The notes beneath the pieces are model-generated. The model was not told where the DNA came from. It saw only the letters and a list, made by a program, of their open reading frames with translations, and did not search any database. DNA of 63,839 bases, filler included, from Actinomycetota bacterium (GTDB taxonomy: Bacteria; Actinomycetota; Acidimicrobiia; IMCC26256; VFJJ01): assembly GCA_009886115.1 (NCBI GenBank). It is 4 parts of 4 records of this genome, joined end to end, with 100 filler letters (N's around TTAATTAATTAA, not from the genome) between each part and the next. Parts side by side here need not be neighbours in the genome. Positions count along the whole stretch, not along the records: positions 39,613 to 59,630 come from VFJJ01000134.1; 3 more parts are not named here. One strand, 5' to 3'. The position numbers and the translations under genes are program-made. Numbering within the stretch: the first letter of the stretch is position 1; every line of letters starts with the position of its first letter. Positions 7,371 to 59,630 of this stretch are shown here, piece after piece.

Positions 7371-7550
7371 GCGCGGCGCCTTTACTCGGGATCTGACCGT
7401 CGCGTCAAGGACCTTCTCGCTCCGGTTCGATTCCGACGGTCGGGGTCGCGTCAGAATGGCGCATCACCTCCTGCCACTTCGGGGGTCAAGGACTCTGGGG
7501 CGCCGACCGGGCCCCAACGGCTACGGAAACAACCGAACGGACGCGCCTTC

Positions 7551-8141: not shown

Positions 8142-8158
8142 CACCGGCCTCCTGAGCC

Positions 8159-8825: not shown

Positions 8826-11800
8826 ATGACCACGATCCCGAGCGCCCCCGCGCCTCTCGCGCACCTGCCCCAGCTGCTGCTCGACGAGCCCGCGTTGTCG
8901 GGTCTGGCCGGCTCGGCCGAGGTGATCGCCGTCTCGGAAGCGGTGCGCCCCTTCGTGATCGCCGGTGTCGCCCGCCTGTCGCGGCGCACGCCGATCGTGG
9001 TGGTGGTGCCCACCCAGAACGAGGCTGAGCGCCTCGCAGCCGATCTCCGGCAGTTCCTCGGCGCCGGCACCCGGGCGATGCCCGCTGTCGAGGCGTTCCC
9101 AGCCTGGGAGACGTTGCCGTTCGAGCGGGTCTCGCCCAACGTCGAGACGATGGGTCGACGGCTCCGGGTCATGTGGCGTTTGCGGATGGGCGGCGAGCAC
9201 CTCCCTCAGGTGCTCGTGGCGCCGGTGCGGGCCTTCGTGCAGCGGTTGGGCCCGCACGTCGAGGACATCGATCCGATCGTCGTGAGCGCGGGAACCATCG
9301 TCGACCGTGACGACCTCGTCGCCCGTCTGGCCGCGGCCGGGTACCGGCGCGAGTACCAGGTGGAGGCCCGGGGCGAGTTCGCCGTGCGGGGCTCGATCGT
9401 CGACGTGTACCCCTCGACCGCCGACCATCCGATGCGCATCGACCTCTGGGGCGACGAGGTCGAGCGGCTGCAGTCGTTCTCGGTGGCCGACCAGCGGGCC
9501 ACCGGTGATCTCGACGAGATGATGGTCTTCCCGTGCCGCGAGCTGTTGCCGACGGTCGACGTGCGCCGCCGGGCCGAAGCGCTGGTCGCCCTCGAGCCCT
9601 GGGGTCGGGCCCACTGGGAGCGCCTGGCCGAGGGGCAGCTGTTCGACGGCATGGAGTCGTGGCTGCCGTGGTTGACCTCGGCCGAGCATCTGCTCACCGA
9701 TCTGGTTTCCGCCGATGCCTTGGTCCTGTTGATCGAGCCGCGACGCATGCGCGACCGGGTGAACGACCTGCTCGCCGAGGAGGAATCGCTCGGACGGTCG
9801 CTGGCCCAGACGTGGGGGGCGGCGGCATCGGCCGACGACGCCGGGTTCCCGAAGCTGTCGTTGCCCTTCGAGCGCCTGCTGGCGCACACCGCAGCCGACA
9901 CGTGGACCGTCCTCGGCGTGCCCGACAACCCCGACACCCCGTTCATCTCGGGCACCCCGTTCGACGGCACGGCCGGCGACGCCGAGGCGTTGGCGTCGCG
10001 CCTGAACACGCTCCTGGCCGAGGGCTGGCGGATCGTCGTCGCCGCCGACGGCGAGGGATCGGCGGTGCGGCTTCGGGCCGTGCTGGCCGAAGGTGGCGCA
10101 CGTTTGGGCGCCACCGACGTCGTGGTCGCGCCGCTCGACCGGGGTTTTCTCGTGTCGTCGCTGAAGCTGGCGGTGATCGGCGAGGCCGACCTCACCGGGC
10201 GTCGCCGTGTGCACCGCAAGGCCCGAGGGGCGCGGCGAGGCCAGGACCTCTACAGCGACCTGGCCCCCGGCAACTTCGTGGTGCACGACATCCACGGCGT
10301 CGGACGTTACGAGGGCATGGTGCAACGCTCAATCGGAGGGGTCGAGCGCGACTACCTCCTGCTCGCGTACAGGGGCGGCGATCGGCTCTACGTGCCGACC
10401 GACCAGGTGGGGACGGTTCGGAAGTACACCGGCGGCGAGAGCCCGACGCTGCATCGTCTCGGCGGCACCGACTTCGCGAAGGCCCGGTCGAAGGTGCGCA
10501 AGGCCGTGGCCGAGATCGCGGCCGATCTCGTGCGGCTCTACCAGCAGCGGATGACCCTGCGGGGACACGCGTTCGGGGCCGACACGCCCTGGCAGCGGGA
10601 GATGGAGGACACGTTCCCGTTCGAGGAGACGCCCGATCAGGCGAAGGCCATCGACGACGTCAAGGCCGACATGGAATCGCCGATCCCGATGGATCGCCTG
10701 GTCTGCGGCGACGTGGGCTACGGCAAGACCGAGGTCGCGGTTCGGGCCGCGTTCAAGGCCGTGCAAGAGGGCAAGCAGGCTGCCGTGCTCGTTCCCACGA
10801 CGCTGCTCGCGAACCAGCACGGGGTCACGTTCAAGGAGCGCTTCGCCGGCTTCCCCGTGCGTGTCGAGGCGGTCTCGCGGTTCCTCTCGACGAAGGAGGT
10901 CAACGGCGTGCTGGCCGGCCTCAGAAGCGGCGAGGTCGACGTGGTCATCGGCACCCACCGGCTGCTCTCGGAGGACGTGGCGTTCAAGGACCTGGGCCTG
11001 CTCGTCGTCGACGAGGAACAGCGATTCGGCGTGTCGCACAAGGAGAAGATCAAGCAGCTCCGGGCGAACGTCGACGTGCTCACGATGACCGCCACGCCCA
11101 TCCCGCGTACGCTCGAGATGAGCCTCACCGGCATTCGCGACCTCTCGCTCGTGCAGACACCGCCCGAGGACCGCCAGCCCATCCTCACCTACGTCGGCGA
11201 CTACGACGAGCGGGCCGTGGCCGAGGCCATCCGCCGGGAGCTGTTGCGGGAGGGTCAAGTGTTCTTCGTGCACAACCGCGTCGCCGACATCGAGCACGTC
11301 GCGGCCGACATCCGCCAGCTCGTCCCCGAGGCCCGGGTGTGCGTGGCCCACGGGCAGATGGACGAGGGCTCGCTCGAACGGGTCGTGCTCGACTTCTCCG
11401 ATCGCGAGCACGACGTGCTCGTGTGCACGACGATCATCGAGAGCGGCATCGACATGCCCACGGTCAACACGCTGGTTGTCGACCGGGCCGACCTGCTCGG
11501 CCTGGCGCAGCTCTACCAGATCCGCGGTCGCGTGGGGCGCTCGGGCCAGCGGGCGTACGCGTACCTGTTCCATCCCGCCGATCGGGAGCTCACCGAGGAG
11601 GCCTACGAGCGCCTCAAGACCATCGGGGAGTTCACCGAGCTGGGGTCGGGGTTCAAGATCGCCATGCGCGACCTGGAGATCCGGGGGGCCGGGAACCTGC
11701 TCGGCGGCGCGCAGTCGGGCCACATCGCCGCCGTGGGCTTCGACCTCTATTGCCGGATGGTGAGCGAGGCGGTGGCCGAGCTCAAGGGGGAGCCCCTCCC

Positions 11801-43054: not shown

Positions 43055-43101
43055 GGAGCGGGCGACGGGAATCGAACCGGCGTTCTCAGCTTGGGAAGCT
43101 G
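43055..43101 (-). repeat. att duplicate of tRNA-Gly 3' half
   Basis: 47 bp matching 45823-45869 with one mismatch. Confidence 0.95.
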
Positions 43102-43268
43102 TTTGAAGCCCTCACCGCGACCTGGTATGACACCCAAAGTAGCTGTTCAAGCGCCCTAATCGGGTGACCGCAGGAACCTTCTGCAGACCGCTGTTCGCCA
43201 CCGCTTATGGCACGCTCATGGCACGACGCGGAGTTGGTCGCCATGAGAATATCTGTCTAAACCACACT

Positions 43269-43322: not shown

Positions 43323-44372
43323 ATGGGTCGACCAGCGATTCCTCAGGCGAGTCGGCGACGACTCAACGACGCCGTGGATCGCCTCGGCGCGCTCCTCCCC
43401 GTGGGGTGGCAGCTCACCGTCGAACGGCGGTCGGCCGAGGGCGGCGTCATTCGCGTCGGCGACGATCGCGACAGCATCGACATCGCTGTGATCACCCGTG
43501 ATCGCATCGAACCACGCGACATCGACCGCCTGCAGCTCTCCGATCAACCGACGATCGTGTCGGCCGCATGGCTGAGCCCGCGCACCCGCGAGCTGCTGCG
43601 CGCACGAGGTGTTGGCTTCGTCGATCGCACCGGCAACACCGAGCTGTGCGTGCAGCGACCCGGCCTGTACCTGCGCACCGACGGCTCCGACAGAGACCCT
43701 GCGCCGCGTCCAAAGCCAGGACCATCCCTGAACGGGCCTCGGGCGTGGGCGCTGCTGCGCACTCTCGTCGAGGTGTCGCCGCTTTACACCGCAGGGGACC
43801 TCGCCTCGGCCCTCAAGCTCGACAACGGCTACATCACCCGCGCTCTCCAAGTGCTCACCGACGAGCAGCTCATCGAACGACGCCCTCGTGGCCCGGTTAC
43901 CTCGGTCGAGTGGGAACCACTGCTACGGCGCCTGATCGAGAGCTACTCGCTGCTCGACGCCAACACCACATCGACGTGGATCGCGGCGGCAGGTCCGAGC
44001 CAGCTTCTTGACGACCTGGCCGACCTGCGCGTCGGCACGTGGGCCGTGACCGGTTCATTCGTCGCCTCCGCGATCGCACCGGTAGCGGCAGCAGAAATAG
44101 CGGTTCTGTACACCGCCGACCCCGAACGCCTCGCCAAAGCAGCCCGACTCCTGCCAGCGACGACCGGCTCGAACGTCATCCTCGCGGTGCCCTATGACCC
44201 GATCGTGTTCCAGCGTACGCAGACCCTCGATCAGGTTCAGGCGGTGTCTGTGGCGCAAGCGGCGATGGACTCCCTCACCGGTCCCGGTCGAATGCCGTCC
44301 GAGGGTGAAGCGCTGCTCACTTGGATGCGCAGAAACGAACCCCGCTGGCGCGGCCAGAACCTGAAAGCCTGA
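43323..44372 (+). CDS. AbiEi-like (type IV TA) antitoxin/regulator
   Basis: WLSPRTRELL..GFVDRTGN, central wHTH, AVTGSFVA, VSVAQAAMD..GR. Confidence 0.72.
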   Translation: MGRPAIPQASRRRLNDAVDRLGALLPVGWQLTVERRSAEGGVIRVGDDRDSIDIAVITRDRIEPRDIDRLQLSDQPTIVSAAWLSPRTRELLRARGVGFVDRTGNTELCVQRPGLYLRTDGSDRDPAPRPKPGPSLNGPRAWALLRTLVEVSPLYTAGDLASALKLDNGYITRALQVLTDEQLIERRPRGPVTSVEWEPLLRRLIESYSLLDANTTSTWIAAAGPSQLLDDLADLRVGTWAVTGSFVASAIAPVAAAEIAVLYTADPERLAKAARLLPATTGSNVILAVPYDPIVFQRTQTLDQVQAVSVAQAAMDSLTGPGRMPSEGEALLTWMRRNEPRWRGQNLKA

Positions 44373-44376
44373 CCAG

Positions 44377-45228
44377 ATGATCGAGCAGCCACGCATCGAG
44401 TACAGCGAGGCCCGACGCGTGCTGCTCGACGCGCTCGGTGCCCTCAGCCAGCAGCTCGCTGCAGTGGTCCTCGTCGGCGCGCAGGCGGTGTACCTACGCA
44501 CCGCCGACCGGCTTCCCGCCTACCAGCCGTTCACCACCGACGCCGACATCGTCCTCGACCCAAGCCTGCTCACCGATCGCCCGGGGCTCGGCGACGTCAT
44601 GCGCAATGCAGGATTCGTCCTCACCGCCGAGCCCGGGATCTGGGAGGCGCGGTTCAAGCGACCGGGCTTCGAGGACGACATCGTGGTGCCGGTCGACCTG
44701 ATCGTCCCGATGCACGTGGCTGCCGGTCCCGGCCGCCGATCTGCGCGCCTCGGCGGCGAGCACGGCAAGCACAGCGCCCGCAAGAGCGAAGGCCTCGAGG
44801 GTGCGCTGGCCGACCACAGCCCGATCCGGATCAGCGCCATCGATCCCGCCGACGACCGAGTCGTCGACGTCAACGTCGCTGGGGAAGCTGGGCTCCTCGT
44901 CGCCAAGCTGCACAAGCTCGGCGACCGACTGGAGAAGCCCGAGCGTCTCGATGCGAAGGATGCCGGCGATGTCTACCGACTCTTCGACATCGTCGCGCCA
45001 GACGAGATGGCGACGCGCCTGATGGCCCTGCTGGCCGACGAACGGTCCGCCGCTGCGACTCTGAAGGCACTGGACTACGGCGACACCCTGTTCAGCGCTG
45101 CGGGCGGCACCGGCGTCCGGCTCGGGGTCGAGGCCCTCCGAACAACGATCCCCGAAGCCACGGTCAGCGCCGTGCTCACCGGCTACTGGCGCGCCCTGCG
45201 AGCTGTCCGCGAGACGACCAATCCATGA
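44377..45228 (+). CDS. AbiEii/GSU2403-like nucleotidyltransferase toxin
   Basis: VLVGAQAV..TTDADI Pol-beta-type motif, VDL, LLVAKL, KDAGDV. Confidence 0.75.
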   Translation: MIEQPRIEYSEARRVLLDALGALSQQLAAVVLVGAQAVYLRTADRLPAYQPFTTDADIVLDPSLLTDRPGLGDVMRNAGFVLTAEPGIWEARFKRPGFEDDIVVPVDLIVPMHVAAGPGRRSARLGGEHGKHSARKSEGLEGALADHSPIRISAIDPADDRVVDVNVAGEAGLLVAKLHKLGDRLEKPERLDAKDAGDVYRLFDIVAPDEMATRLMALLADERSAAATLKALDYGDTLFSAAGGTGVRLGVEALRTTIPEATVSAVLTGYWRALRAVRETTNP

Positions 45229-45714: not shown

Positions 45715-45821
45715 CCGTCGATGTCCAGGAACGCCCGATGCTTATGGCATGTTTATGGCACGAACATCGGTGGTAGCTTCAATGATCCAACTATGTCAGG
45801 TCCCTGACCTGCGGAAACACT

Positions 45822-45895
45822 TGGAGCGGGCGACGGGAATCGAACCCGCGTTCTCAGCTTGGGAAGCTGATGTTCTACCGCTGAACTACACCCGC
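45822..45895 (-). tRNA. tRNA-Gly(CCC)
   Basis: GCGGGTGTAGTTCAGCGGTAGAACATCAGCTTCCCAAGCTGAGAACGCGGGTTCGATTCCCGTCGCCCGCTCCA. Confidence 0.97.
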
Positions 45896-46093
45896 GTGAG
45901 CGGTTGGACCTTAGCAAAAGACCTGCCCAGCCGCCTGATCACCCCTCCGTCGATGCCGGCTCAGCCAGCGGCCGACCTCGGCGTGACCTTGGCGTGACCT
46001 AACGGCCCAGCACACGACAGCACCAGCCGGCACGAATCGACACGAGCCGGTGTCGATGAGCCCGCTCGTTCGACTCGACCAGCAGCACGCGGT

Positions 46094-46332
46094 TCAGCCG
46101 CCTTCGGCGAGCTTCTTCGCGGCGAGCTCGGCTCGTTCGCTGTGGATGTCGAACGGCTCGGTGCGTCCCGACGCGCCGCAGCCGATGAACGCTTCGAGCG
46201 GGTCGTCTACGGCGGGCAGGGCGGCGGCGAGCTCGGTGATGAGCTGGTCGAGGGTGAGGCCCCGCCGGGCGGCTTCGCTAGCACGGTCTCGAGGCGGGCC
46301 TGGGTCGGCGGGAGATCGATCGTAACCAGCAT
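46094..46332 (-). pseudogene. Frameshifted RHH/CopG-like antitoxin
   Basis: MLVTIDLPP.. then, in another frame, EAARRGLTLDQLITELA..FIGCGASG..; followed by a VLLVESN stub resembling a PIN toxin start. Confidence 0.6.
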
Positions 46333-46487
46333 GGTCTCAAGCGTAGGTGTCGGTTCTGCCGCCCAGACAGAGCCGTTTCGAAGCGGCCTCTGCGGCCTCT
46401 ACTCGGCCGACGCGTTCGACGACGCCCGACGACGGGCTGTTGGCCGTCTCCCGTGCGGAAGAATTCCGCTCAGACACATCTGCGTTC

Positions 46488-46688
46488 TCATTCGCGCGCC
46501 TCGCCCGCGAACTCCAGAGCCGCATCGATGTCAGCATCCTCGAGCTCGGGGAAGTCCTCGAGGATCTGCTCATGGCTCTGGCCCGCATCGAGCTGACCGA
46601 GGATCGTCGTGACCGGGATTCTCAGGCCACGGATGCAGGGCAGACCGCCCATCTGCCTGGCGTTGACGGTGATCCGCTCGAATCGCAC
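46488..46688 (-). CDS. DUF433 antitoxin-like protein (orphan, possibly 3'-truncated)
   Basis: RITVNARQMGGLPCIRGLRIPV..ILEDFPELEDADIDAAL. Confidence 0.88.
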   Translation of the reverse strand: MRFERITVNARQMGGLPCIRGLRIPVTTILGQLDAGQSHEQILEDFPELEDADIDAALEFAGEARE

Positions 46689-47010
46689 GGGCGCTCCTCA
46701 CGGTGGCGCTCGGTCCGGCGTACCCAAGCGCTTGGGTTCGCTCGTCCGATCAGGATGGTCGACGAACGAGCCATGGAGTCGATCGTGGCCGAAGCGAGGG
46801 TTCTCACACTTCGATTTCCGTGCCACAGCTTACGACGTCGGGCGACCGATCCCGATCTCGTTGGACGTGGGGGCGCCGCGGCGACTGTCTCGAACCGCCG
46901 GGTGGGGTGAGCGTGACGAGCAGGGCCGCGTTTTCGGGAATGCCGGTACGTTCGTTCGATGACGTAGCTCGTCCCTCACTCGTGCCACAACCACCGGGTA
47001 CGCTTCGATC

Positions 47011-47208
47011 ATGGTGCGCACGCTGGATCTCTCGCCATGGGCGGGTCGCTGGGTGGCCGTCGACACAGCTAATCATGTGCGCTGCGACGCACCATCGCTG
47101 GCGCAGCTCCTCGACGTCCTCGCCGTCACCGACGTCGGCGAGGTCGGCGAAGTCGAAGTGATGCGCGCCCCGGCGCCGGACGAGCCGGTGGTCTACGGGA
47201 TTGGCTGA
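47011..47208 (+). CDS. Small DUF5678-like protein
   Basis: WAGRWVAVD motif; TACGCT -10 six nt before ATG; overlaps next gene. Confidence 0.65.
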   Translation: MVRTLDLSPWAGRWVAVDTANHVRCDAPSLAQLLDVLAVTDVGEVGEVEVMRAPAPDEPVVYGIG

Positions 47209-47677
47209 CGCCTGGCAGTACGGGTACACCGACTTCGGCGAAGGGCATGGGCGAAGCCCACAGCCCGTACTACGGGCCGTGGTCGGCGTTGCCGCACCCG
47301 GAGCACCCAACCGCTTCGCCGCGATCATCGATACCGGCGGACCGATCACCGTCGTCGCAGCCGAGGTGTTGGGCTCAGGCGGCGATCCGGTCCAACGCAA
47401 CGAGACGATGATGCTGCGCCTCGGTGGTTCCACCAACGACGTGCCGCTCTACGACGTGACCTTGGAGGTGCGCCCGCCAACAGACCTCGTCGACGCCATT
47501 CCGGTTGGCTGGCGAGGCATCGTCGCCGTACTCGAACCGTGGCCGCACCACGGCACCGCGGTGATCCTGGGACAGTCCGGGTTCCTCGACACGTTCACCG
47601 TGACGTTCGGCCCGGACGGCTTCGTCCTCGAACCTGCCTGGGTGTTCAGGCGGCGTTTCCCACCCGCGAGCCACTGA
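47201..47677 (+). CDS. Retropepsin-like aspartic protease
   Basis: AIIDTGG catalytic motif and ILGQSGFL C-terminal motif. Confidence 0.78.
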   Translation: MADAWQYGYTDFGEGHGRSPQPVLRAVVGVAAPGAPNRFAAIIDTGGPITVVAAEVLGSGGDPVQRNETMMLRLGGSTNDVPLYDVTLEVRPPTDLVDAIPVGWRGIVAVLEPWPHHGTAVILGQSGFLDTFTVTFGPDGFVLEPAWVFRRRFPPASH

Positions 47678-47810
47678 ACTCCGACGACGCACACGTCGAA
47701 GCCGAAACACGGACGAGCAGCCACTGCAGCCGGGGCGAGCCCAGCCTGAGACTTCGCGAGCGAGGAGCTTCCGGGTCAAGCAGCTCGTCGCTTCGAAGAA
47801 CGGTTGTCGA

Positions 47811-48995
47811 TCAACTCGGATCGCCAGCTCCGTCAACCACGGGCCGGAGCGCGTGCACCTGTGCGGTCGGTTCTTCCCGTGCCGCCTGGATGAGCCGGTC
47901 GAGCCCGCTCGCCAAGACCCGGTCACGCTCGTCGGTCGCGTGCTGGTAGCGAAGGGCTGCCTCCTGGGTGGCGTGGCCCAGGCGACGCATGATCTCCTTG
48001 GTGCCGGCTCCGGTCGCCGCGGCCAACGTCCCGGCCACGTGGCGGAGATCGTGCAGGTGGACGTGATCGAGCCCGAGCGAGCGGCGAGCGCGGTCCCAGT
48101 CCTTCTGCCACACGCCCGGACGGACCGGCCCGCCCTTCTCGCCCACGAACACCAGCCCCCGGGCCTCGGACGACGCCCACCGGGCCAGGTGCTCCTCCAG
48201 TGCGGGGATCAGCTCCGTCGGGAGCGCAAGCTTGCGCCGACCGGCGACGGTCTTGGGTGGGCCGATCAACTCCGCGCCGGTCTTCGAATGCTGCCGTTGG
48301 ACGCGAATGTCGACCGTTCCGTGCAGCAGGTCGATATCCGTACGCGTCAGCCCGAACAGCTCGCCACGTCGAAGCCCGCCGAACGCGGCCATGAGCACCA
48401 GCGCACGAAAGCGTGGCGCGACCGCATCGGCGAGCGCATATACCTGTCCGATAGACGGGATAGACCGCTCTTCCACGGGCTCGACGCCGGCGCCCCTGAT
48501 GGTGCACGGGTTGGCGATGAGGTGTCGGTCCTCGACCGCGGTGTTTAGGATCGTACGGAGCAGCCGGTAACACTTGGCCACCGTCGACGGGCCGGGGCCT
48601 TCGGTCAGGAGAACGGCGTGCCATCGCCGAACCGTCGCGGTTGACATGCGCCCGAGCGGGACCGACCCGAGCATGGGGAGGATGTGCAGGCGCAGATACC
48701 CCTCGTACAGCTCACGCACTCGTGGGCGGAGTGGCTCACCGCGAGACGTGAGGCGAGAGTCGAGCCAACCGGGCGCATACTCGGCAAGGGTGATCCGCCC
48801 GTCGTCGGGCGCGATCCAGGCACCTCGCTGTTGGTCGGAGGCTGCGGTGGCGAAGGCGAGCTCGGCCGCCGCCTTCGTCTTGTAGCTCCCGACCGACACG
48901 CGGTCGCCGGTCGCAGGATCCACCAGCCGGACGCGCCACCGCCCGCTGGGAAGCCGATCAACACCGCCAAGCTGCCGACGTCTCGCTCTACCCAT
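47811..48995 (-). CDS. Tyrosine integrase (apparently intact)
   Basis: Arm-binding N-terminus LPSGRWRVR, GLRRGELFGL, PKT, HDLRH, LGH, RYQH. Confidence 0.95.
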   Translation of the reverse strand: MGRARRRQLGGVDRLPSGRWRVRLVDPATGDRVSVGSYKTKAAAELAFATAASDQQRGAWIAPDDGRITLAEYAPGWLDSRLTSRGEPLRPRVRELYEGYLRLHILPMLGSVPLGRMSTATVRRWHAVLLTEGPGPSTVAKCYRLLRTILNTAVEDRHLIANPCTIRGAGVEPVEERSIPSIGQVYALADAVAPRFRALVLMAAFGGLRRGELFGLTRTDIDLLHGTVDIRVQRQHSKTGAELIGPPKTVAGRRKLALPTELIPALEEHLARWASSEARGLVFVGEKGGPVRPGVWQKDWDRARRSLGLDHVHLHDLRHVAGTLAAATGAGTKEIMRRLGHATQEAALRYQHATDERDRVLASGLDRLIQAAREEPTAQVHALRPVVDGAGDPS

Positions 48996-49160
48996 CGTCG
49001 AACCCTCCATCCACGCCAGTACGCAGTCTCACAGCATCGCGACTCCGTACAACCGCGACCGCCCCGATCTCGTCACGGTCGAGGGGAAGTGCGCTTCCCG
49101 GAACCCAGCTCATGACTCTACGGTGCCGTTGAAGATTCTACAAGAGCCGAGACGCATGCA

Positions 49161-49335
49161 TCTGACCGGACGAGCGCGAAACAGGAGGGGCCATCTGGTG
49201 CCGTCCTGTACGCTTCTGTGCTGTTCAGAGAGGGTGATGGTCTCGCCCTGTGTTGTTAACTCCGCCTCCTACCGGCTCGTCTGGCGGACGTTTCCGGACG
49301 CTCCGACATCAGCTCACGACAGAATGAGCTGCTCG
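49161..49335. repeat. Degenerate ~175-bp direct repeat, copy 1
   Basis: Aligns with 49889-50065 (ATCTGGTG..GTCCTGTACGC..CTGGCGGACGTTT..CAGCTCACGACA.AATGAGCTGCTCG). Confidence 0.85.
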
Positions 49336-49510
49336 GGGCTGGGCAACAGCTCGATCTCGATCCTGTGTCGAGCTCGACGTCATCAATCGACCACGATCGA
49401 GAACCGCGACACCACGCCGAGCAGCCCCGAGGTCGTCTTCGATCCCGATGGCCGACGCTACCCAGGGGATCGTCGGCTGCGCCCGCGGACCCCGACGCCG
49501 GCGAGGAAGC

Positions 49511-49550
49511 GTGGAGCCAGGGGTTCGAGGTGTCCCTGCGTGCAAGGCAG
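49511..49550 (-). other. Degenerate tRNA-Ala(TGC) 3'-half fragment (att scar)
   Basis: Minus strand CTGCCTTGCACGCAGG..TCGAACCCCTGGCTCCAC resembles tRNA-Ala anticodon arm and 3' end. Confidence 0.7.
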
Positions 49551-49888
49551 CGCAGGAGCCGTCCGTTGGGTACTCCTTCGGGCTGTGCAGTGCCGCCCCG
49601 TGCCGTCTCGTGTCGGCGTAGACATGCTGCTCAGCAGGGGTTCAACCGTACATCTGGTGTGCTCTGAGGTCGTCCGGTGTCGTTGCGTGATCCGCTGTGT
49701 TGGGATCGGCATCGAGGGGCTGCTGGCTACGTTCCTGGCTACGTTTTCCACAGGCCCGAGAGGTAGGCACCATGACCGGGCTCGTGGATCGGGCTGCCGA
49801 CCGTAGGCGTGGTTCGGTTTCGAAGTTTGCCCGCGCCGTCTCCACTTGATGCACCGCCGTCCCCGGCCGCTCGTCCCGTGGGCCGGCT

Positions 49889-50065
49889 TCTGCTCCTTAC
49901 GAGTGCGATTTTGGCAGTCTATCTGGTGTCGTCCTGTACGCGTCTGTGCTGGTCAGAGGGGGTGCCCGTGCTGCCGAGTGTTGTCTGATTCCGCCCCGTA
50001 TCGCCCCGTCTGGCGGACGTTTTCCGGACGCCCCGAGATCAGCTCACGACACAATGAGCTGCTCG
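49889..50065. repeat. Degenerate direct repeat, copy 2, starting with tRNA-Thr(CGT)-like anticodon sequence
   Basis: Minus strand CACTCGTAAGGAGCAG; aligns with 49161-49335. Confidence 0.8.
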
Positions 50066-50129
50066 CCTGCTGCGTACCCTGACCCGATCGCCTGTCGGTC
50101 GCAACGGCGCGACCGGCAGTGCCGTTCAG

Positions 50130-50260
50130 TCAGTCGCTGCCGGGTGGAGCAACGTGCTCGGGGAGCCACGTTGCCGTGCGTGATTCGTCCCATTCGCCGG
50201 CAGCAAACGCGATCACGGCCGCTTCGGCGGCATCGATCGACGGGCGCGTGACCCACGTCC
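50130..50260 (-). pseudogene. C-terminal remnant of Doc/Fic-like toxin
   Basis: PSIDAAEAAVIAFAAGEWDESRTATWL recalls Doc C-termini; catalytic Fic motif absent. Confidence 0.5.
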
Positions 50261-50372
50261 ATTCGGACCAAACCGTGACCACGGTGTTGATCCGCCACCC
50301 GTCGAAGGACCCGGTTTTCCGTTCCCACAGCCTCGGAGCCCTGTGGTGTGACCGGGTCGTACACTTGCGGTG

Positions 50373-50621
50373 ATGACCATGCCGATCGAGCTCCCCGACG
50401 AGGTGGCCCGCCGCGTACTGGCGGTGGCCACGGCGCGCGGCATCCGTCCCGAACAGGTGGTCATCGAGGCCGTACAAGCCGAGGTGGGATCTGCCAACCC
50501 GGGCGAGCCCGACAACCCCTTCTCGTCGGCGCAGGACGAGTTACGGCAGATCGCATTCGACGGGTCGCTCCGGGCAGAGATCGACTCCTGGTCAGACGAC
50601 CCCGATCTCACCGTCGGCTAA
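50373..50621 (+). CDS. Putative RHH antitoxin
   Basis: IELPDEVARRVLAVATARGIRPEQVV; TACACT -10 seven nt before ATG; precedes PIN-like gene. Confidence 0.72.
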   Translation: MTMPIELPDEVARRVLAVATARGIRPEQVVIEAVQAEVGSANPGEPDNPFSSAQDELRQIAFDGSLRAEIDSWSDDPDLTVG

Positions 50622-50627
50622 CCCTTC

Positions 50628-51062
50628 GTGGTCATCGTCGACGACCACCTCACCCTGCTCGCCCTCGCAGGCGTGATACCTGTCACCGAGCTCGGCGACG
50701 ACATCGCCACCACATCGCTCTGGTACCTCCGCCTTGTTTCGGCAGCTACGGCGCCGCCGACCGAGATCCACGGTCCCGGTCGTCTCGGTCGCATCCTCCA
50801 GTCCCTCCCGCGACCAGCCGACGCGCTCCAACGAATCCTTCACCCGCCCCGGTCCACGCTCCAGGTGCTCCATCTGATGGAGTTCGCCGTGGAGACGGCC
50901 CGGATGCAACGCGAGCGCCGCCTCAACCTCCTCGCCGCCGAGACCCTGGGCGCAGCCGCCCACCACAGGGCATCGATTCTCGTGGCCGCACCGAACGCCG
51001 GCGGACCGATCGAGGTCGCTGCAAGCGCTGAAGGGATCCCATACATGGTGCGCACGTCCTGA
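50628..51062 (+). CDS. PIN-domain (VapC-like) putative toxin
   Basis: VIVDDH N-terminal strand, LNLLAAETLGAA motif, size and pairing. Confidence 0.65.
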   Translation: MVIVDDHLTLLALAGVIPVTELGDDIATTSLWYLRLVSAATAPPTEIHGPGRLGRILQSLPRPADALQRILHPPRSTLQVLHLMEFAVETARMQRERRLNLLAAETLGAAAHHRASILVAAPNAGGPIEVAASAEGIPYMVRTS

Positions 51063-51570
51063 CCCGGGACTACGACCTACGAACAGCCCCGAAGTCCGGG
51101 CCACGTAGATACTCCGCCCGCATGGGCCCGGAACGACGCGGGAGACGCTCCTCACCTTGAGAGGGAGAGCGAGCCCGTAATGTCGCATGCCACTGCGTAC
51201 GTTTCCGCAGGTCAGCGCAGGTGCGATTGCCCGCCTGGTCTCGTCCAGTTCGTCTGGTCCCGCCCCGTGGATTGGCAAAGGGATTGGCAGGCGCCTCCGG
51301 CTCCGCATTACCGATGTCCCAGGCAACGCCCCAACCCCAGGGGGCTTGTCGGCGTCTGGTCGGGCCTCGATCAGAGCGATCCGATCGACGACTGACTGTG
51401 GCAGCGCCCGATTTCAGTGCCCGGTTTGAGCGTTTCGTCCAGGTTTCGAGCCAGATTTAACCGATTTCTGATCGCCTCGTGTCACAAATTTGGGCCTCGA
51501 ATTGCTCTTACAGGTAGGGACCTCACGCGGCGGGGTCACGAGGGGGGAGATCAATCGACATGTCGGATCG

Positions 51571-51588
51571 ACACACACACACACACAC
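51571..51588. repeat. (AC)9 dinucleotide tract
   Basis: Read directly. Confidence 0.97.
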
Positions 51589-51638
51589 TTGCGAGCGGTG
51601 GGGGTTCGCCGGGCTCGGGTGAGCCTGGGGCCGGTCGG

Positions 51639-52199
51639 GTGAGCGCCGAGGGGGTGCCTCGACACGCCCCGACGGTCACGAGCGACGAGCGTGTGGACAT
51701 ACTGTGGGATGCGCACGTGGTCGCGGTGCGGGGTCTGGTACGGCGCACGTTGCTGGCCGTGGCGGACGTCGACGACGTAGTGCAGGGGGTCTTCGTGACG
51801 GCCTGGCGGCGTTCGACGGGGTTGGTTGACGATCCGGGTTCCCCGGGCGCGCGAGCGTGGCTGCTGGCTGTCGCCACGGGGCATGTACAGAACGCGAATC
51901 GGGCCGAGCAGCGTCGACGAGCAGCGTTGCGCCGGTTCGTGGCGGAGGTCTCGGTTCGCGATCCGGGCGTGACGGCCACGCCGGAGGTGGCTGTTCCAGA
52001 GACGGTCGGCGATCCGCTCAGCACGTTGCGGGCGGCTGATCAGACACTGCTCCGGTTGTGGTCGTCAGGAATGTCGACGGCCGAGCTGGCCGTCGAGTTG
52101 TCGGTGAGCGAGGCCGCCGTCAGGCAGCGACTGTCGCGTGCTCGCAAGCAGCTGGCGACAGCGCTCTTGGCAGCGACAAAGGGTGGGGACGGGTCGTGA
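51639..52199 (+). CDS. ECF sigma-70 factor (start uncertain; possibly ATG 51560 via AC-tract slippage)
   Basis: DVDDVVQGVFVTAWRR, RAWLLAVA, STAELAVELSVSEAAVRQRLSRARKQL. Confidence 0.85.
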   Translation: MSAEGVPRHAPTVTSDERVDILWDAHVVAVRGLVRRTLLAVADVDDVVQGVFVTAWRRSTGLVDDPGSPGARAWLLAVATGHVQNANRAEQRRRAALRRFVAEVSVRDPGVTATPEVAVPETVGDPLSTLRAADQTLLRLWSSGMSTAELAVELSVSEAAVRQRLSRARKQLATALLAATKGGDGS

Positions 52200-53926
52200 T
52201 GGTGAGGAGCTCATGGCGGCGTCGGGTCGGGTGGCTCGTGGCCGGGCTTGTCCTCGTTGGTGTCCCGGCCGCCGCGTACGAGGCGGGGCAACGGGTCAGG
52301 TCGCCGGCCCAGGCGGCCGCAGACGCCGCGCCGCCGATCCCGTCGGTGATCACCGCTCCGGTGGAGCGCCGCGTGTTGACCGACGCAGTCGTCTTTCGTG
52401 GCGACGTGATCGCAGCGGGCGCGGTGGAGGTGGGTGCGCCGTCGTTGTCGGCTGAGACGGTGCCGGTGGTGACCGATGTGCGGGTCGGGGTGGGCGATCC
52501 AGTCGTCGAGGGTGCCGTGTTGGTGGTGGTGTCGGATCGGCCGGTGTTGGTGCTGGAAGGTCTGGTGCCGGCGTACCGGTCGCTAGGTCCGGCCAGCCGC
52601 GGTCTGGACGTGGCCCAGCTGCAGGACGGTCTCGCCCGGTTGGGCTTCGATGTCGGTGACGACGAAGACGGGGTGTTCGGGGCGGGGACGCAGGCTGCGG
52701 TGGCGGCGTGGTATCGGGAGGCCGGGTTCGAGCCGGTGCCGTCCTCGCCTGACGACACGGTGAAGTTGGCGGAGGCGTTGGCGGGGGTGGACGCGGCGGA
52801 ACGCGCGTTGGCCGGTGCGCAGGAGGCCCTGGCCGATGGCCGCCAGGTCGACCCGGGCGCGGTGGCGCAGTCCGAGGTGGCGTTGGGTCAGTCGCAGCGG
52901 GCCCTGAACAGCGCTCGTGATACGTCGACCCGGGCGATCCAGGCGGCGGACGGGGCCGTGAGCGCAGCCCGTCGTGAGGTCGATCGACTGGTGGCTGACC
53001 CGTTGGCGACGGCCGAGCAGATATCCGCGGCCCGGCAGGTGTTGGCGGTGGCGGAGGCCGACCGGGCCCGGATCGGCGGTGAGCAGGCTGGCCTGGTGGC
53101 TGATGCCGAGGACGGCCTGCGGCTGGCGGAGTTGGCGTACGAGACGGCGTTGGAGCCTCCGGATGTGGACGCGTTGCGGCGGGGGGTGGTCGATGCGGAG
53201 GCCGCGTTGACGGCGGCGCAGCGGTCGTACTTCTTGGTGAGCGTCTCGGCCGGGGTGACCGTCCCGCGTGGGGAAGTGGTGTTCGTGCCGGAGCTGCCGG
53301 CGCGGGTGTCGTCGTCGAACGCCGTGATCGGGGCGTCGGTCGGTGGTGGCGCTGGGGCGGGCCCGACGGGTTCGGAAGCGGGTGCTCTCGGAGCGGGTGG
53401 TGGGGGCGCGTCGAGCCCGGGCAGTGCGCTGTTGGGCTTGAGTATCGGGTCGTTGGAGGTCCGGGGCGGGATCTCGGCTGGCGATCGGCCGCTGGTACAA
53501 GAAGGTGCCGTAGCGGTGCTCGATGTCGAGGTGACCGGCGACCGGTTCGACGCGGTCGTGGCCGAGATCGCCGAGGAGCCTGTGGCCGGCCCGGCTGGCG
53601 GGCTCGAGCACGAGGTGGTGCTCGACCCGGCCACCGAGATCCCCGACGGCTTGTTGGGGGCGAACCTGCGGGTCACGATCGCGGCGGCGTCGACCGACGG
53701 GCCGGTTCTGGTTGTGCCGCTGGCGGCCGTGTCAGCGAAGGCCGACGGGACATTACGGGTCACGGTGCTGCGAGCCGACGGCGTGCAGGTCGAGGTCCCT
53801 GTCGAGGCCGGACTCTCGGCGGTGGGCTACGTCGAGATCACCCCGATCGGGCCAGGCGGCCTGGCAGAGGGCGACCGGGTCGTGATCGGTGTCGCCGGGC
53901 TCGAACCTGCGGGCGCAGCTTCATGA
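52196..53926 (+). CDS. Membrane-fusion/adaptor subunit with peptidoglycan-binding domain
   Basis: TM, GLDVAQLQDGLARLGF..DGVFGAGTQAAV, coiled coil, LVVPLAAV..LAEGDRVV. Confidence 0.88.
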   Translation: MMVRSSWRRRVGWLVAGLVLVGVPAAAYEAGQRVRSPAQAAADAAPPIPSVITAPVERRVLTDAVVFRGDVIAAGAVEVGAPSLSAETVPVVTDVRVGVGDPVVEGAVLVVVSDRPVLVLEGLVPAYRSLGPASRGLDVAQLQDGLARLGFDVGDDEDGVFGAGTQAAVAAWYREAGFEPVPSSPDDTVKLAEALAGVDAAERALAGAQEALADGRQVDPGAVAQSEVALGQSQRALNSARDTSTRAIQAADGAVSAARREVDRLVADPLATAEQISAARQVLAVAEADRARIGGEQAGLVADAEDGLRLAELAYETALEPPDVDALRRGVVDAEAALTAAQRSYFLVSVSAGVTVPRGEVVFVPELPARVSSSNAVIGASVGGGAGAGPTGSEAGALGAGGGGASSPGSALLGLSIGSLEVRGGISAGDRPLVQEGAVAVLDVEVTGDRFDAVVAEIAEEPVAGPAGGLEHEVVLDPATEIPDGLLGANLRVTIAAASTDGPVLVVPLAAVSAKADGTLRVTVLRADGVQVEVPVEAGLSAVGYVEITPIGPGGLAEGDRVVIGVAGLEPAGAAS

Positions 53927-58278: not shown

Positions 58279-59630
58279 TCACAGGTATAGGCCGAAGCCT
58301 CGGTCGTGTTCCCGGTGGAGGGTGCGGGTGAGTTGCTCGATGGCGCGTCGGGTGTCGGCCGCGCTGGTGGCTTGGGCGGTGTAGGGGAAACCGGTCGCTC
58401 GTTCGAGGGCCGTCGGCAGCTCGGGAGCCCCGTAGGCGCCGTGGTGGCGGTCGAGGCGGGCGGCGGCCTGGTCCCACAAGTCGGCTGCTTCTCGGTCGGT
58501 GGGGCGGGCGCCGAGTTGATTGGTCATGGTTCGTGTCGGATGGTGTCGCACGTCGTCGAGCCGTGCCGTGAAGTCTCGGTGGATGTCGTCTCGGACGGTG
58601 CTGCGTTCGGTGTCCCAGGCCCGGCGTCGCGGGGCCTGCCGTTGATGCTCTCGCTGTCGTGTCCGTAGGCTGTCGAGCTCTTCGGCGAGCTGGGTTGCCT
58701 CGCGTTGTTGCTTGTCGAGGTAGCGGGGCAGCCAGCCGAGGATGGTGCGGGCCTCGTTGATCTCGCCGGCGTGGCCGTGACGGTGCAGGACCCGGTCGTG
58801 CCGGTCGAGGGTCGTCTGGGCTGCGGTACAGCGGGCCGAGTCGGTGGTGATCTCTCGGGTGAGCTGCTGGTGGCGTCGTAGGCCGTCGTCGATTTGCCGG
58901 GCGAGGTTGTTGAGCGTGCAGTCGTGACCGTCGATCCGGCTGGTGAGCAGGTGGTCGCGTTCGAGCAGATCTCGGATCTCCATACCCGACAAGGGGATCG
59001 CCTTCCACTCGGGGAGGAGGGTGAGGTTGGCGAGTTGGGCGGCGCGGATGGTGGCGGGCGTGTCGATCCACCGTTGGGTGAGCGCCGAGGTGAGGATGTC
59101 GATGGCCTGATCTGGTTGTTCAGCGATGACGTAGACGTCGTTCCTGTGACGGCCTCGGGTCATGGGGACATAGATCCCGGCAGCATCGACCGGCCCGTCG
59201 ACGATGAGGATCGACCTGTCGACCGTACGGCCTTGGCTGGCATGCGCCGTCTGCGCGTAGCCAAGCTCGACACGCTGGGACACGTAGTCGGCGGGGAGGG
59301 CGATCGTTCCGGCCCGACCCGTCACGGTCAGGCGGCCGTCGGGGTGGGTGTGGGTGATGGTCCAGGTGTCGCGGTTCTTGACCATCAGGCTGCGGTCGGT
59401 GAGGAGTTGCCGGTCGTTGTGACGGGTCACGATGAGGTCCCCGACATGCACCTGATACGCCCCGGCAGTGACGGTCCGGGTCGGGTCGAGCTGGTCGTGG
59501 GCGATCCGCCAGGCCTGAACAAGCTCGTTCAACCGGATCACGGTCTCGTTCGTCGCGGCCACAAGCGCCACCGTCTCGCCGGCCATGTGGGCCTGCACCC
59601 ACGCCCGCAGTGCCGAGCGTTCGACGCTGA
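58279..59630 (-). CDS. MobF/TrwC-type relaxase-helicase C-terminal part (cut by gap)
   Basis: VGDLIVTRHNDR, LPADYV..VELGYAQTAHASQGRTVD, YVPMTRGR. Confidence 0.85.

What the first reader, a model, noticed from the sequence alone, without database searches (positions are those of the whole stretch)
45960..51300. Array of co-oriented att-like scars from several different tRNAs, interleaved with small TA-like modules, around one intact integrase
Seen: decayed tRNA fragments, all on the minus strand like the tRNA-Gly att copy at 43055: Ala(TGC)-like 49511-49550, Thr(CGT)-like about 49890-49905 (more decayed twin near 49161-49180) and Glu(CTC)-like CCTTGAGAGGG near 51154-51164. Each is followed 100-170 bp to the right by its own 11-12-bp-period tandem pair (CTGGCTACGTT x2 at 49723-49745; GGCGGACGTTTTCCGGACG near 50012 with a twin near 49283; GATTGGCA x2 at 51270-51289). 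Another pair sits at 45974-46000. The clear tRNA-Gly island end has the same core-then-tandem layout. Between them lie small modules: RHH pseudogene, DUF433, DUF5678-like/protease, Doc remnant, RHH-PIN. Established: tyrosine integrases use tRNA 3' halves as att cores and tandem arm-type sites. Inference: either a graveyard where element ends with different tRNA specificities accumulated, or an integron-like system that stockpiles small TA/defence cassettes via att-like ends. No cognate Ala/Thr/Glu tRNA gene is in this contig.
Basis: partly seen in the sequence, partly recalled or inferred. Interest (0 to 1): 0.75.

Follow-up and report, generated by a model that had tools for sequence, protein, structure and literature searches.

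The report
Orphan att ends inside tRNA-Gly island
Beside a glycine tRNA gene of an uncultured actinobacterium lie leftover docking ends of several different tRNA-targeting mobile elements, stacked inside a larger mobile element whose own integrase is unrelated to them: a mosaic of familiar parts, not a new cassette-capturing system.

Summary
The sequence features are real. Three minus-strand look-alikes of tRNA anticodon stem-loops (Ala-TGC 49535-49551, Thr-CGT 49892-49908, Glu-CTC 51152-51168) are each followed by an 11-12-bp tandem pair. Their number alone is about what chance gives. What makes them real is register and homology: each heads a copy of a conserved "distal att arm". In this genome that arm also follows true displaced tRNA halves (Gly, Leu-CAA, Ala-CGC, Ala-GGC, Glu-CTC).

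For six elements the same tandem motif recurs at the other end of the element, so the pairs behave as arm-type integrase sites. The intact integrase (47811-49010) does not serve the scars. It belongs to an element inserted on the 5' side of tRNA-Gly(CCC), whose sites are the GCGTGACC pair at 45974-46000 and a partner beside a displaced tRNA-Gly 5' half on contig C156.

Eight related MAG loci encode close relatives of this integrase. Six show integrase, arm pair and tRNA-Gly together, a seventh shows the far end, and none has the scar array. The Glu- and Ala-type motifs recur next to integrases at their own tRNA genes elsewhere in the genome. The orphan arms in the window have no proximal partner.

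Best reading: a mosaic of orphaned element ends carried as cargo. The integron-like reading is not supported. Interest is moderate to low. The scan has noted similar att look-alike junctions on other DNA.

The parts
43055..43101 (-). Displaced copy of the tRNA-Gly(CCC) 3' half (far end of a 2.7-kb island on the 3' side of the tRNA)
   Evidence: 47 nt, 98% identical to 45823-45869
43202..43225 (.). Arm-type tandem pair (T/C)ATGGCA x2, distal arm of the 3'-side Gly island; its partner is 45738-45760
   Evidence: TRF period 11; this motif pair occurs only at these two places in the genome
45301..45714 (+). Truncated integrase (C-terminal 137 aa) of the 3'-side Gly island
   Evidence: Phage_integrase E 2.1e-07, profile positions 92-170 of 172
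45822..45895 (-). tRNA-Gly(CCC), with a mobile element on each side
   Evidence: ARAGORN; Rfam tRNA 70.5 bits
45974..46000 (.). Arm-type pair GGCGTGACC x2 of the element on the 5' side of tRNA-Gly; these are the intact integrase's own sites
   Evidence: TRF. A partner pair at C156:311-335 lies about 100 nt before a 45/45 copy of the tRNA-Gly 5' half at C156:434-478. The same motif stands beside tRNA-Gly in G194 and in 6 of 8 MAG loci
46488..46688 (-). DUF433 gene (cargo between arm and integrase)
   Evidence: Pfam E 3.7e-23; homologous stretch in L049 and L051
47201..47677 (+). 158-aa ORF, aspartyl-protease-like (a lead only); it overlaps a preceding 65-aa ORF at 47011-47208 of no known family
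   Evidence: RVP E 0.085; Atlas clusters in which 18-62% of members carry Asp_protease_2
47811..49010 (-). Intact tyrosine integrase of the tRNA-Gly 5'-side element
   Evidence: Phage_integrase E 1.6e-18; 71-81% identical integrases in 8 MAG loci, 6 of them with arm pair and tRNA-Gly(ccc) alongside
49161..49335 (+). rep1: orphan distal-arm unit with a decayed core (ACG kept at 49170-49172), conserved word at 49220, and pair GGCGGACG/CCGGACG at 49283-49300
   Evidence: 83% identical to rep2 over 145 nt; nhmmer arm profile E 2.3e-23, though it was part of the training set; core 9/17, no better than chance
49511..49745 (+). Ala unit: decayed tRNA-Ala 3' half read on the minus strand (core 49535-49551, TGC-like), a long arm, and pair (C)TGGCTACGTT x2 at 49723-49745
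   Evidence: Core 14/17 to Ala_tgc. Colinear with the tRNA-Ala(ggc) fragment plus arm on C175. The GGCTACGT pair also lies between tRNA-Ala(ggc) and its integrase on C13 and in G082
49865..50066 (+). rep2: Thr(CGT)-like core 49892-49908, conserved word at 49948-49958, pair at 50012-50030, hairpin at 50040-50061
   Evidence: 14/17 to Thr_cgt. 89% identical to C115:8262-8458 and to its ortholog in the congener G001. A groundwater-metagenome contig is 97% identical from 49865 on and unlike the window before that point
50370..51062 (+). Two-gene module (83 aa and 144 aa) following rep2.
   Evidence: No Pfam or NCBIfam match. The 144-aa protein resembles unnamed actinobacterial clusters; PIN appears only at rank 25
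51114..51289 (+). Glu unit: about 40 nt shared with C13, Glu(CTC)-like core 51152-51168, conserved word at 51207-51217, pair GATTGGCA x2 at 51270-51289
   Evidence: 14/17 to Glu_ctc. 79% identical to C36, where the same arm follows a 43/46 copy of the tRNA-Glu 3' half. The same pair lies between an integrase N-terminus and the real tRNA-Glu(ctc) on C117
51417..55847 (+). Cargo behind the Glu arm: ECF-type sigma factor, a protein with a peptidoglycan-binding domain, an ABC ATPase-like ORF (not put to a family search), and a MacB/FtsX permease
   Evidence: Pfam; 92-93% identical copies on C13 and C36. The ATPase label rests on reading its translation
58282..59598 (-). C-terminal part of a TrwC/TraI-type relaxase-helicase, at the end of the contig
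   Evidence: Relatives carry AAA_30 and, in some, TrwC domains

Best explanation
The array is a mosaic of orphaned far ends ('distal att arms') of tRNA-targeting tyrosine-integrase elements. It is carried as cargo inside a larger element that sits on the 5' side of tRNA-Gly(CCC).

SHOWN.
- The genome holds a family of such elements. Each has an anticodon-centred core, a conserved arm word 47-48 nt away, and its own 11-bp tandem arm-type sites that recur at both ends of the element.
- The Thr-, Ala- and Glu-type units in the window are copies of that distal arm, with only the anticodon stem-loop (Thr, Glu) or a decayed 3' half (Ala) in front.
- They lack the integrase-proximal partner arm.
- The intact integrase belongs to the carrier element, not to them.

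INFERRED. Each unit was once the left junction of an element. That element entered the carrier, or a forerunner of it, either by insertion at a core look-alike or by recombination between co-resident elements. It was then truncated by the next arrival or by deletion. What remains is arm only (rep1, Ala), arm plus a two-gene module (rep2), or arm plus a sigma/ABC-efflux operon (Glu). The pieces now move only if the carrier moves.
For: (1) ARM FAMILY. An nhmmer profile built from 8 units recovered those 8 plus one new place, C193:122947-122831 (E 1.8e-05). That place proved to be a 55-nt, 98% copy of the tRNA-Leu(caa) 3' half, 6 kb from the real gene. It is followed by the same arm and a pair GGCGGAACGAT x2.

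(2) SAME TANDEM MOTIF AT BOTH ENDS, in six elements:
- Gly 3' side: 43202 and 45738.
- Gly 5' side: 45974 and C156:311.
- Glu: C36 and C117.
- Ala-GGC: C175 and C13.
- Ala-CGC: C115 GTTGACAAG x2 and C85 TTGTCAAC x3, with 46/47 identity to the tRNA half.
- The G194 element.

(3) SCAR CORES. They match the claimed tRNAs at the anticodon stem-loop (14-15 of 17) as well as true junctions do (14-16 of 17), and at the same 47-48-nt offset.

(4) ORPHAN STATUS. The GATTGGCA pair occurs at 4 places in the genome: three distal-type (window, C13, C36) and one proximal (C117). The GGCTACGT pair also occurs at 4 places, only one of them proximal (C13).

(5) CARRIER ELEMENT.
- G194 shows tRNA-Gly, then GCGTGACC x3, a TacA/GNAT pair, the integrase, a TrwC relaxase, and 9.9 kb on a 43-nt copy of the tRNA 5' half.
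- Of the 8 MAG loci, 6 show integrase, arm pair and tRNA-Gly(ccc) together, and a seventh (L053) shows the far-end arm with the displaced 5' half.
- None of the 8 matches 49010-51300 by BLASTN or by the arm profile.

(6) HOMOLOGY BREAKS AT OR NEAR THE CORES.
- Window and C36 diverge exactly at the Glu core.
- Window and C13 share from about 40 nt before the core. On C13 the shared unit replaces the native integrase tail seen in G082.
Against: - The arm-type sites in the orphan arms are perfectly kept although the arms have diverged. In the Ala alignment all 21 site positions are identical, against about 54% identity overall. The Glu pair is 20/20 identical to C36 against 79% overall. This could mean the sites are still used, or only that they were orphaned recently.
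- The rep unit is a sharply bounded block of about 200 bp, present in 3 copies with different flanks. A near-identical copy in another metagenome has a different left flank. That hints at recent movement of the unit.
- Integrase genes stand beside the matching Glu-type (C117, only the N-terminal 106 aa assembled) and Ala-GGC-type (C13, full length) sites in the same genome.
- No true tRNA-Thr(CGT) junction with the CGGACG motif was found. The congener's tRNA-Thr element has GAGGACGG repeats, which share only GGACG with it.
- The assembly is a 224-contig MAG. The right-hand part of the carrier and any nested right junctions cannot be seen. The 'paralogs' could also come from co-binned strains.
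Confidence: 0.66

Rival explanations
1. The orphan arms are working handles. Integrases of co-resident elements (Glu, Ala, Thr types) act in trans on 'core plus arm' sites. Cargo blocks headed by such a site would then be moved between elements: a multi-integrase cassette exchange, or a split (polypartite) element.
For: Arm-type sites are perfectly conserved in diverged arms. Integrase genes stand beside the matching motifs elsewhere in the genome. The same Glu arm heads the sigma/efflux operon in three contexts. The rep unit is found in three contexts, and a relative has a breakpoint at its left edge. Small TA-like modules sit just behind arms on C115 (HTH_66-DUF433 plus PIN_10) and in G194 (TacA/GNAT).
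Against: No partner proximal arms exist for the orphan sites. The array is not found in 8 of 8 loci of the same integrase family. Two of the units (rep1, Ala) head no cargo at all. The cores of rep1 and the Ala 3' half are visibly decayed. The contigs laid showed no convincing joints at the cores: all were low-depth contigs with sides under 31 nt.
Confidence: 0.13
2. An integron-like platform: the intact integrase captures small cassettes at an adjacent site, each cassette ending in an att-like element.
For: The layout resembles an integron superficially. The integrase reads away from an array of co-oriented sites that begins about 150 bp upstream of it.
Against: The integrase's own arm motif (GCGTGACC) is absent from the scars. 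It scores 18 bits against the integron-integrase model, cut-off 265. In relatives the space upstream of the integrase holds the element's far end (L053), or an ORF of no family and a relaxase (G194), and never an array. The sites carry three different cores and motifs, whose matching integrases lie elsewhere.
Confidence: 0.03
3. The tRNA likeness is chance, and the tandem pairs are operators or promoter repeats of neighbouring small genes (for example antitoxin operators), not att sites.
For: The number of stem-loop look-alikes is what chance predicts: 3 found against about 2.7 expected on both strands. Exact 8-mer tandem pairs are common in this GC-rich genome: the composite signature gives 76 hits on the arm side against 66 on the wrong side. 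On C119 and C221 a TCCGGACG pair lies about 20 nt before a small ORF that I read as antitoxin-like (no family search was run on it). rep1's core and the loose CGGACG pattern (52 places genome-wide) are not specific.
Against: The cores keep a fixed 47-48-nt register to a conserved arm word shared with true junctions. The Glu and Ala units are homologous to junctions that carry real tRNA halves. Identical motifs recur at both ends of six elements. Three composite hits fall in 5.3 kb where about 0.04 is expected.
Confidence: 0.06

Closest known systems
Genomic islands in tRNA genes with an anticodon-centred att site, made by tyrosine integrases (Islander collection, PMC4383910; passages read)
   Same: An intact tRNA gene and a displaced fragment mark the ends. 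The identity segment starts at the anticodon loop. An integrase lies near one end. The paper counts 2083 of 3919 islands as anticodon-centred, and 159 of 3919 as having a 5' fragment like the carrier element here.
   Different: The three scars are not paired with an intact tRNA gene on the contig. Two of them lack the tRNA half altogether. They lie inside another island, not at a tRNA gene.
Tandem accretion and cis-mobilisable elements (CIMEs) of ICE/IME, e.g. ICESt1/ICESt3 of streptococci (reviewed in PMC5704250; search listing and abstract only, the rest recalled)
   Same: Integrase-less blocks bounded by att sites, stacked head to tail beside an element that has an integrase. The orphan sites keep their integrase-binding motifs.
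   Different: In accretion all sites share one core and one integrase. Here the cores and arm motifs differ (Thr, Ala, Glu, Gly), and none matches the resident integrase.
Polypartite ICEs (ICE3 of Mesorhizobium; PMC5882170, abstract only)
   Same: Several integrases of different site specificity in one genome. att sites of different specificity lie close together within one element's DNA.
   Different: ICE3 has matched att pairs for each recombinase, and each has its directionality factor. Here each specificity has surplus distal arms and a single proximal arm. No assembly pathway is evident.
Integrons (IntI, attI, attC cassettes) and Xer-dependent pdif modules of Acinetobacter plasmids (recalled, no paper read)
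   Same: Arrays of short recombination sites separating small modules, often toxin-antitoxin pairs, near a tyrosine recombinase.
   Different: One recombinase and one site family serve the whole array in those systems. Here the sites are lambda-type arms with tRNA-derived cores of several specificities, and the nearby integrase is not of the integron type.

Membership tests
tRNA-targeting tyrosine-integrase element, anticodon-centred (carrier element on the 5' side of tRNA-Gly) | Tyrosine integrase with a catalytic Phage_integrase domain | tested here: met
   PF00589 E 1.6e-18, residues 198-361
tRNA-targeting tyrosine-integrase element, anticodon-centred (carrier element on the 5' side of tRNA-Gly) | Intact tRNA gene plus a displaced fragment in the same orientation, with identity starting at the anticodon loop | tested here: met
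   C156:434-478 is 45/45 identical to 45853-45897, but it lies on another contig, so contiguity is inferred. The complete pair is seen on one contig in G194 and in L051
tRNA-targeting tyrosine-integrase element, anticodon-centred (carrier element on the 5' side of tRNA-Gly) | Same arm-type repeats in both arms | tested here: met
   GGCGTGACC x2 at 45974-46000 and GGCGTGACC/ACCGTGACC at C156:311-335; G194 has x3 and x2
Junction of a tRNA-integrated element (the three scars) | Displaced tRNA half (about 45-55 nt) next to the arm | tested here: not met
   Thr and Glu scars match only the 17-nt stem-loop (14/17). The Ala scar has a decayed, colinear 3' half. Rfam's tRNA model is silent on all three
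Junction of a tRNA-integrated element (the three scars) | Arm homologous to arms of proven junctions, with the core in register | tested here: met
   nhmmer profile plus the independent C193 hit; the 47-48-nt offset; C175 alignment
Junction of a tRNA-integrated element (the three scars) | Partner junction (integrase, proximal arm, intact tRNA) on the same replicon | tested here: inconclusive
   None in the window. The only proximal arms with these motifs pair with other distal arms (C117 with C36, C13 with C175). The assembly is fragmented
Integron | IntI-type integrase | tested here: not met
   TIGR02249 gives 18.1 bits against a cut-off of 265
Integron | Cassette array kept next to the integrase across relatives | tested here: not met
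   0 of 8 related loci match 49010-51300
CIME / tandem accretion | All att sites of the array share the core and arm motifs of the neighbouring element's integrase | tested here: not met
   Three different cores and motifs, none of them GCGTGACC
Polypartite ICE | Matched attL/attR pairs for each of several integrases | tested here: not met
   The GATTGGCA pair occurs 3 times distal and once proximal. The GGCTACGT pair occurs 4 times, only once proximal

The most novel reading that the evidence does not exclude
The orphan 'core plus arm' units may be live docking handles. At least five integrases of different tRNA specificity share this genome. If they recombine such handles in trans, cargo blocks headed by a handle would be shuffled between integrative elements. 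Candidate blocks are the two-gene module behind rep2 and the sigma/ABC-efflux operon behind the Glu arm. That would be a heterologous, multi-integrase counterpart of integron or pdif cassette exchange. The perfectly kept arm-type sites, the three contexts of the Glu-headed operon and of the rep unit, and a breakpoint at the rep2 edge in another metagenome do not exclude this.
Probability: 0.1. Interest if true: 0.75.

Novelty: new member of a known kind. Interest (0 to 1): 0.38.

Why it matters
This stretch gives a clean worked example, in an uncultured actinobacterial lineage, of how tRNA-targeting islands are built. There is a shared arm scaffold, and each element has its own 11-bp tandem integrase sites that can be matched between the two ends even across contigs. 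It also shows how such islands pile up into mosaics.

Practically, the arm motifs allow contig ends of a fragmented MAG to be paired: C85 with C115, C36 with C117, C13 with C175, and C102 with C156.

The carrier belongs to the minority class that replaces the 5' half of its target tRNA, and so presumably also the tRNA's promoter. If the orphan arms proved to be active, they would point to cassette exchange among elements served by different integrases.

Tried and rejected
- Whole-tRNA local alignment of all 56 own tRNAs against 45960-51300 under two scoring schemes: no score stood out. The method is too blunt for 17-nt cores.
- A generic detector (stem-loop look-alike plus an exact 8-mer pair) over the whole genome gave 76 hits on the arm side and 66 on the wrong side. 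It is useless genome-wide and was used only for local density.
- An apparent decayed tRNA-Thr 3' half that I saw by eye at about 49078-49125, and any tRNA piece beside either end of the integrase: not supported (best scores 18-23).
- Search for a true tRNA-Thr(CGT) junction with the CGGACG pair. The real gene sits at the edge of contig C4. Pattern hits in G000 and G001 have no tRNA nearby. The congener's junction has a different repeat.
- The loose CGGACG pattern hits 52 places and is not specific.
- Public runs: only low-depth Logan contigs were available. The joints 46005->47995, 46239->50998 and others have sides of 20-31 nt in single contigs, so no conclusion is drawn from them. No circular junction could be sought in contigs.
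- Folding of the rep units was not done: the call exceeded the length limit and was not repeated.
- Synteny with the one congener (G001). Only 45799-45953 around tRNA-Gly is conserved. Its right flank holds a 46-nt relic of the integrase 3' end, so there is no empty site to compare with.

Full report
SETTING. The 63.8-kb window is a scaffold of four contigs of a 224-contig MAG (95.6% complete, 3% contaminated). The finding lies wholly on contig C102, which is window 39613-59630. ARAGORN finds two tRNA genes in the window: tRNA-Gln and tRNA-Gly(ccc) at 45822-45895 on the minus strand.

WHAT IS THERE.
- A 47-nt, 98% copy of the tRNA-Gly 3' half lies at 43055-43101.
- Tandem pairs lie at 43202-43225, 45738-45760, 45974-46000 and 49723-49745 (TRF). 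Further pairs lie at 49283-49300, 50012-50030 and 51270-51289.
- 49193-49335 and 49921-50065 are direct repeats, 83% identical. A third copy (89% to rep2) is on contig C115. Its ortholog is in the only congener, G001.

IS THE tRNA LIKENESS MORE THAN CHANCE? Taken alone, no.
- Local alignment of whole tRNAs shows nothing above background.
- Rfam's tRNA model sees only tRNA-Gly at E<=1.
- With the 17-nt anticodon stem-loops of all 56 tRNAs, exactly three places in 45960-51300 reach 14/17.
- However, 14 of 4000 random 30-nt windows do as well, which predicts about 1.3 such hits per strand in this stretch.

The evidence is positional.
- In junctions that carry real tRNA halves (Gly at 43055, Ala-CGC on C115, Glu on C36, Leu-CAA on C193), the anticodon centre lies 47-48 nt before a conserved word GCnGnTCAGnG.
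- The Thr scar (49900 to 49948) and the Glu scar (51160 to 51207) keep this offset.
- The Ala scar aligns colinearly over about 270 nt with the tRNA-Ala(ggc) fragment plus arm on C175. The alignment includes a decayed acceptor and T-arm.
- The scars match stem-loops (14-15 of 17) as well as true junctions do (14-16 of 17).
- rep1's core does not (9/17), although ACG stands in register.

THE ARMS ARE A REAL FAMILY AND THE PAIRS ARE ARM-TYPE SITES. An nhmmer profile of eight units found one place outside the training set, on C193. It is a 55-nt, 98% copy of the tRNA-Leu(caa) 3' half, 6 kb from the gene, followed by the same arm and a pair GGCGGAACGAT x2.

For six elements the tandem motif recurs at the other end:
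- TTATGGCA, for the island on the 3' side of tRNA-Gly.
- GATTGGCA on C36 (after a 43/46 tRNA-Glu half), and on C117 between an integrase N-terminus and the real tRNA-Glu(ctc).
- GGCTACGT on C175, and on C13 between tRNA-Ala(ggc) and its integrase. The same motif is seen in G082, whose integrase is 72% identical.
- GTTGACAAG on C115 (after a 46/47 tRNA-Ala(cgc) half), and three times on C85 next to that tRNA and its integrase.
- GCGTGACC, for the carrier element in G000 and for its counterpart in G194, described below.

The Ala(TGC)-like scar on C115/G001 carries TGATACAT x2. That is the motif found beside the real tRNA-Ala(tgc) on C180.

THE INTACT INTEGRASE BELONGS TO ANOTHER ELEMENT.
- Its closest relatives (genome search, 74 of 201 genomes at E<=1e-40) mostly lie at tRNA-Gly(ccc). 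Of the 13 loci scanned for tRNAs, 6 had tRNA-Gly(ccc), 1 tRNA-Ala(tgc), 1 tRNA-Gly(tcc) and 5 none. One of the six, L021, comes from a genome flagged unpublished; the statement stands without it.
- G194, from another family, repeats the window's layout: tRNA-Gly, GCGTGACC x3, a TacA/GNAT pair, the integrase (76-78% identical, in two pieces), a TrwC relaxase, and 9.9 kb on a 43-nt copy of the tRNA's 5' half preceded by two more GCGTGACC sites.
- In G000 the matching far end is on contig C156: a 45/45 copy of 45853-45897, preceded by GGCGTGACC/ACCGTGACC.
- Eight MAG records encode integrases 71-81% identical to the window's; one of them is the G194 contig. Six show integrase, arm pair and tRNA-Gly(ccc) together, and a seventh (L053) shows the far-end arm with the displaced 5' half. 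None matches 49010-51300 by BLASTN or by the arm profile.

So everything from 45896 to at least the end of C102 lies inside an element that replaced the 5' half of tRNA-Gly. Islands with a 5' fragment are a known minority, 159 of 3919 in Islander (PMC4383910, passages read). A relaxase-helicase C-terminal part lies at 58282-59598.

WHAT THE ARRAY IS. It lies just upstream of the carrier's integrase. In relatives that space holds the element's far end, or an ORF of no known family and a relaxase. The array consists of distal arms only.
- The GATTGGCA pair occurs four times in the genome: three distal and one proximal.
- The GGCTACGT pair occurs four times, only once proximal.
- Homology with C36 breaks exactly at the Glu core.
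- Homology with C13 starts about 40 nt before the core. On C13 the shared unit replaces the native integrase tail seen in G082.
- The sigma/ABC-efflux operon behind the Glu arm has 92-93% identical copies on C13 and C36.
- Pieces of the region recur in other elements, for example 58297-58438 matches the tRNA-Leu element at 91%.

MECHANISM. I read the units as left junctions of former elements. They entered the carrier or its forerunners either by insertion at core look-alikes or by recombination among co-resident elements, and were then truncated. They now travel only as cargo. This part is inferred; nothing here shows the events themselves.

AGAINST A PURELY DEAD GRAVEYARD.
- Arm-type sites are perfectly kept in diverged arms.
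- The rep unit is sharply bounded and sits in three contexts.
- A 706-nt contig from a groundwater metagenome is 97% identical from 49865 on and unlike the window before that point.
- Integrase genes stand beside the matching Glu-type (C117, N-terminal part only) and Ala-GGC-type (C13, full length) sites elsewhere in the genome.
These keep a trans-mobilisation reading alive at about one in ten.

THE INTEGRON-LIKE READING is not supported. The integrase is not of the integron type (18 bits against a cut-off of 265). Its arm motif is absent from the scars. The array is not a feature of its family.

COMPARISON WITH EARLIER NOTES OF THIS SCAN. Earlier notes on other genomes describe att look-alike junction repeats between cassettes in tRNA islands. 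Those share one specificity. Here the specificities differ.

CAVEATS. This is a fragmented MAG, so element pairings across contigs rest on motif and repeat matches, and copies may come from co-binned strains. The module names other than DUF433 are unconfirmed. The Thr unit lacks a proven cognate junction. Only low-depth contigs, not reads, could be laid.

Noticed in passing
window 45822-46000 with G000 contig C156:311-478: The element on the 5' side of tRNA-Gly supplies the tRNA's 5' half and everything upstream of it, so the tRNA's promoter is presumably element-borne. Islands with a 5' fragment are a minority (159 of 3919 in Islander). tRNA-Gly(CCC) here has a mobile element on each side.
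   Followed up: partly
window 51571-51588: A perfect (AC)9 dinucleotide run inside the long open frame that contains the ECF sigma-factor gene behind the Glu arm (TRF). The paralogous copy on C36 lacks about 470 bp here (window 51537 to 52008 maps to C36 21383 to 21392).
   Followed up: no
window 52008-53792; G000 contigs C13:1-1582 and C36:21392-21892: The sigma/peptidoglycan-binding/ABC-efflux operon exists in three copies, 92-93% identical, each headed by the same Glu-type arm. They could be true paralogs or co-binned strains.
   Followed up: partly
L014 (G001:C178) 8438-8482: In the congener, the flank just beyond the 5' end of tRNA-Gly holds a 46-nt relic (87%) of the 3' end of the integrase gene (window 47881-47924). 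That genome therefore once carried the same 5'-side element and lost it. Its 3' side carries a different element with ATGTTCGCCAA x2.
   Followed up: partly
L014 (G001:C178) about 9260-9500: A dense run of short repeats built on GGATCCGCGGG/CCCGCGGAT words inside the element on the 3' side of the congener's tRNA-Gly. It looks iteron-like and is unexplained.
   Followed up: no
G000 contigs C119:4240-4270 and C221:7230-7260: A tandem pair GTCCGGACGTT/GTCCGGACGAC lies about 20 nt before a small ORF that I read as antitoxin-like (no family search run). On C221 it is preceded by a second pair, GCAGTGACA x2. On C221 the ORF's start also appears fused to an integrase-like fragment.
   Followed up: no
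G000 contig C128:1000-1140: Another orphan unit: a T-arm-like GGGGGGTTCGAAAGCCGTCCCTG resembling the window's Ala scar, followed about 130 nt on by GGCTACGTC x2.
   Followed up: no
window 43323-45228: The small island on the 3' side of tRNA-Gly carries a 349-aa protein with a weak MarR-type HTH match (E 2.9e-05, just under the Pfam cut-off) and a 283-aa protein with no family match. They lie next to a truncated integrase.
   Followed up: no
L032 (G071:C30) 6844-8216: The 65%-identical integrase of G071 lies beside tRNA-Ala(tgc) rather than tRNA-Gly, with a CGTGACCT pair on the 5' side of that tRNA. This looks like a change of target within one integrase clade that keeps the arm motif.
   Followed up: no
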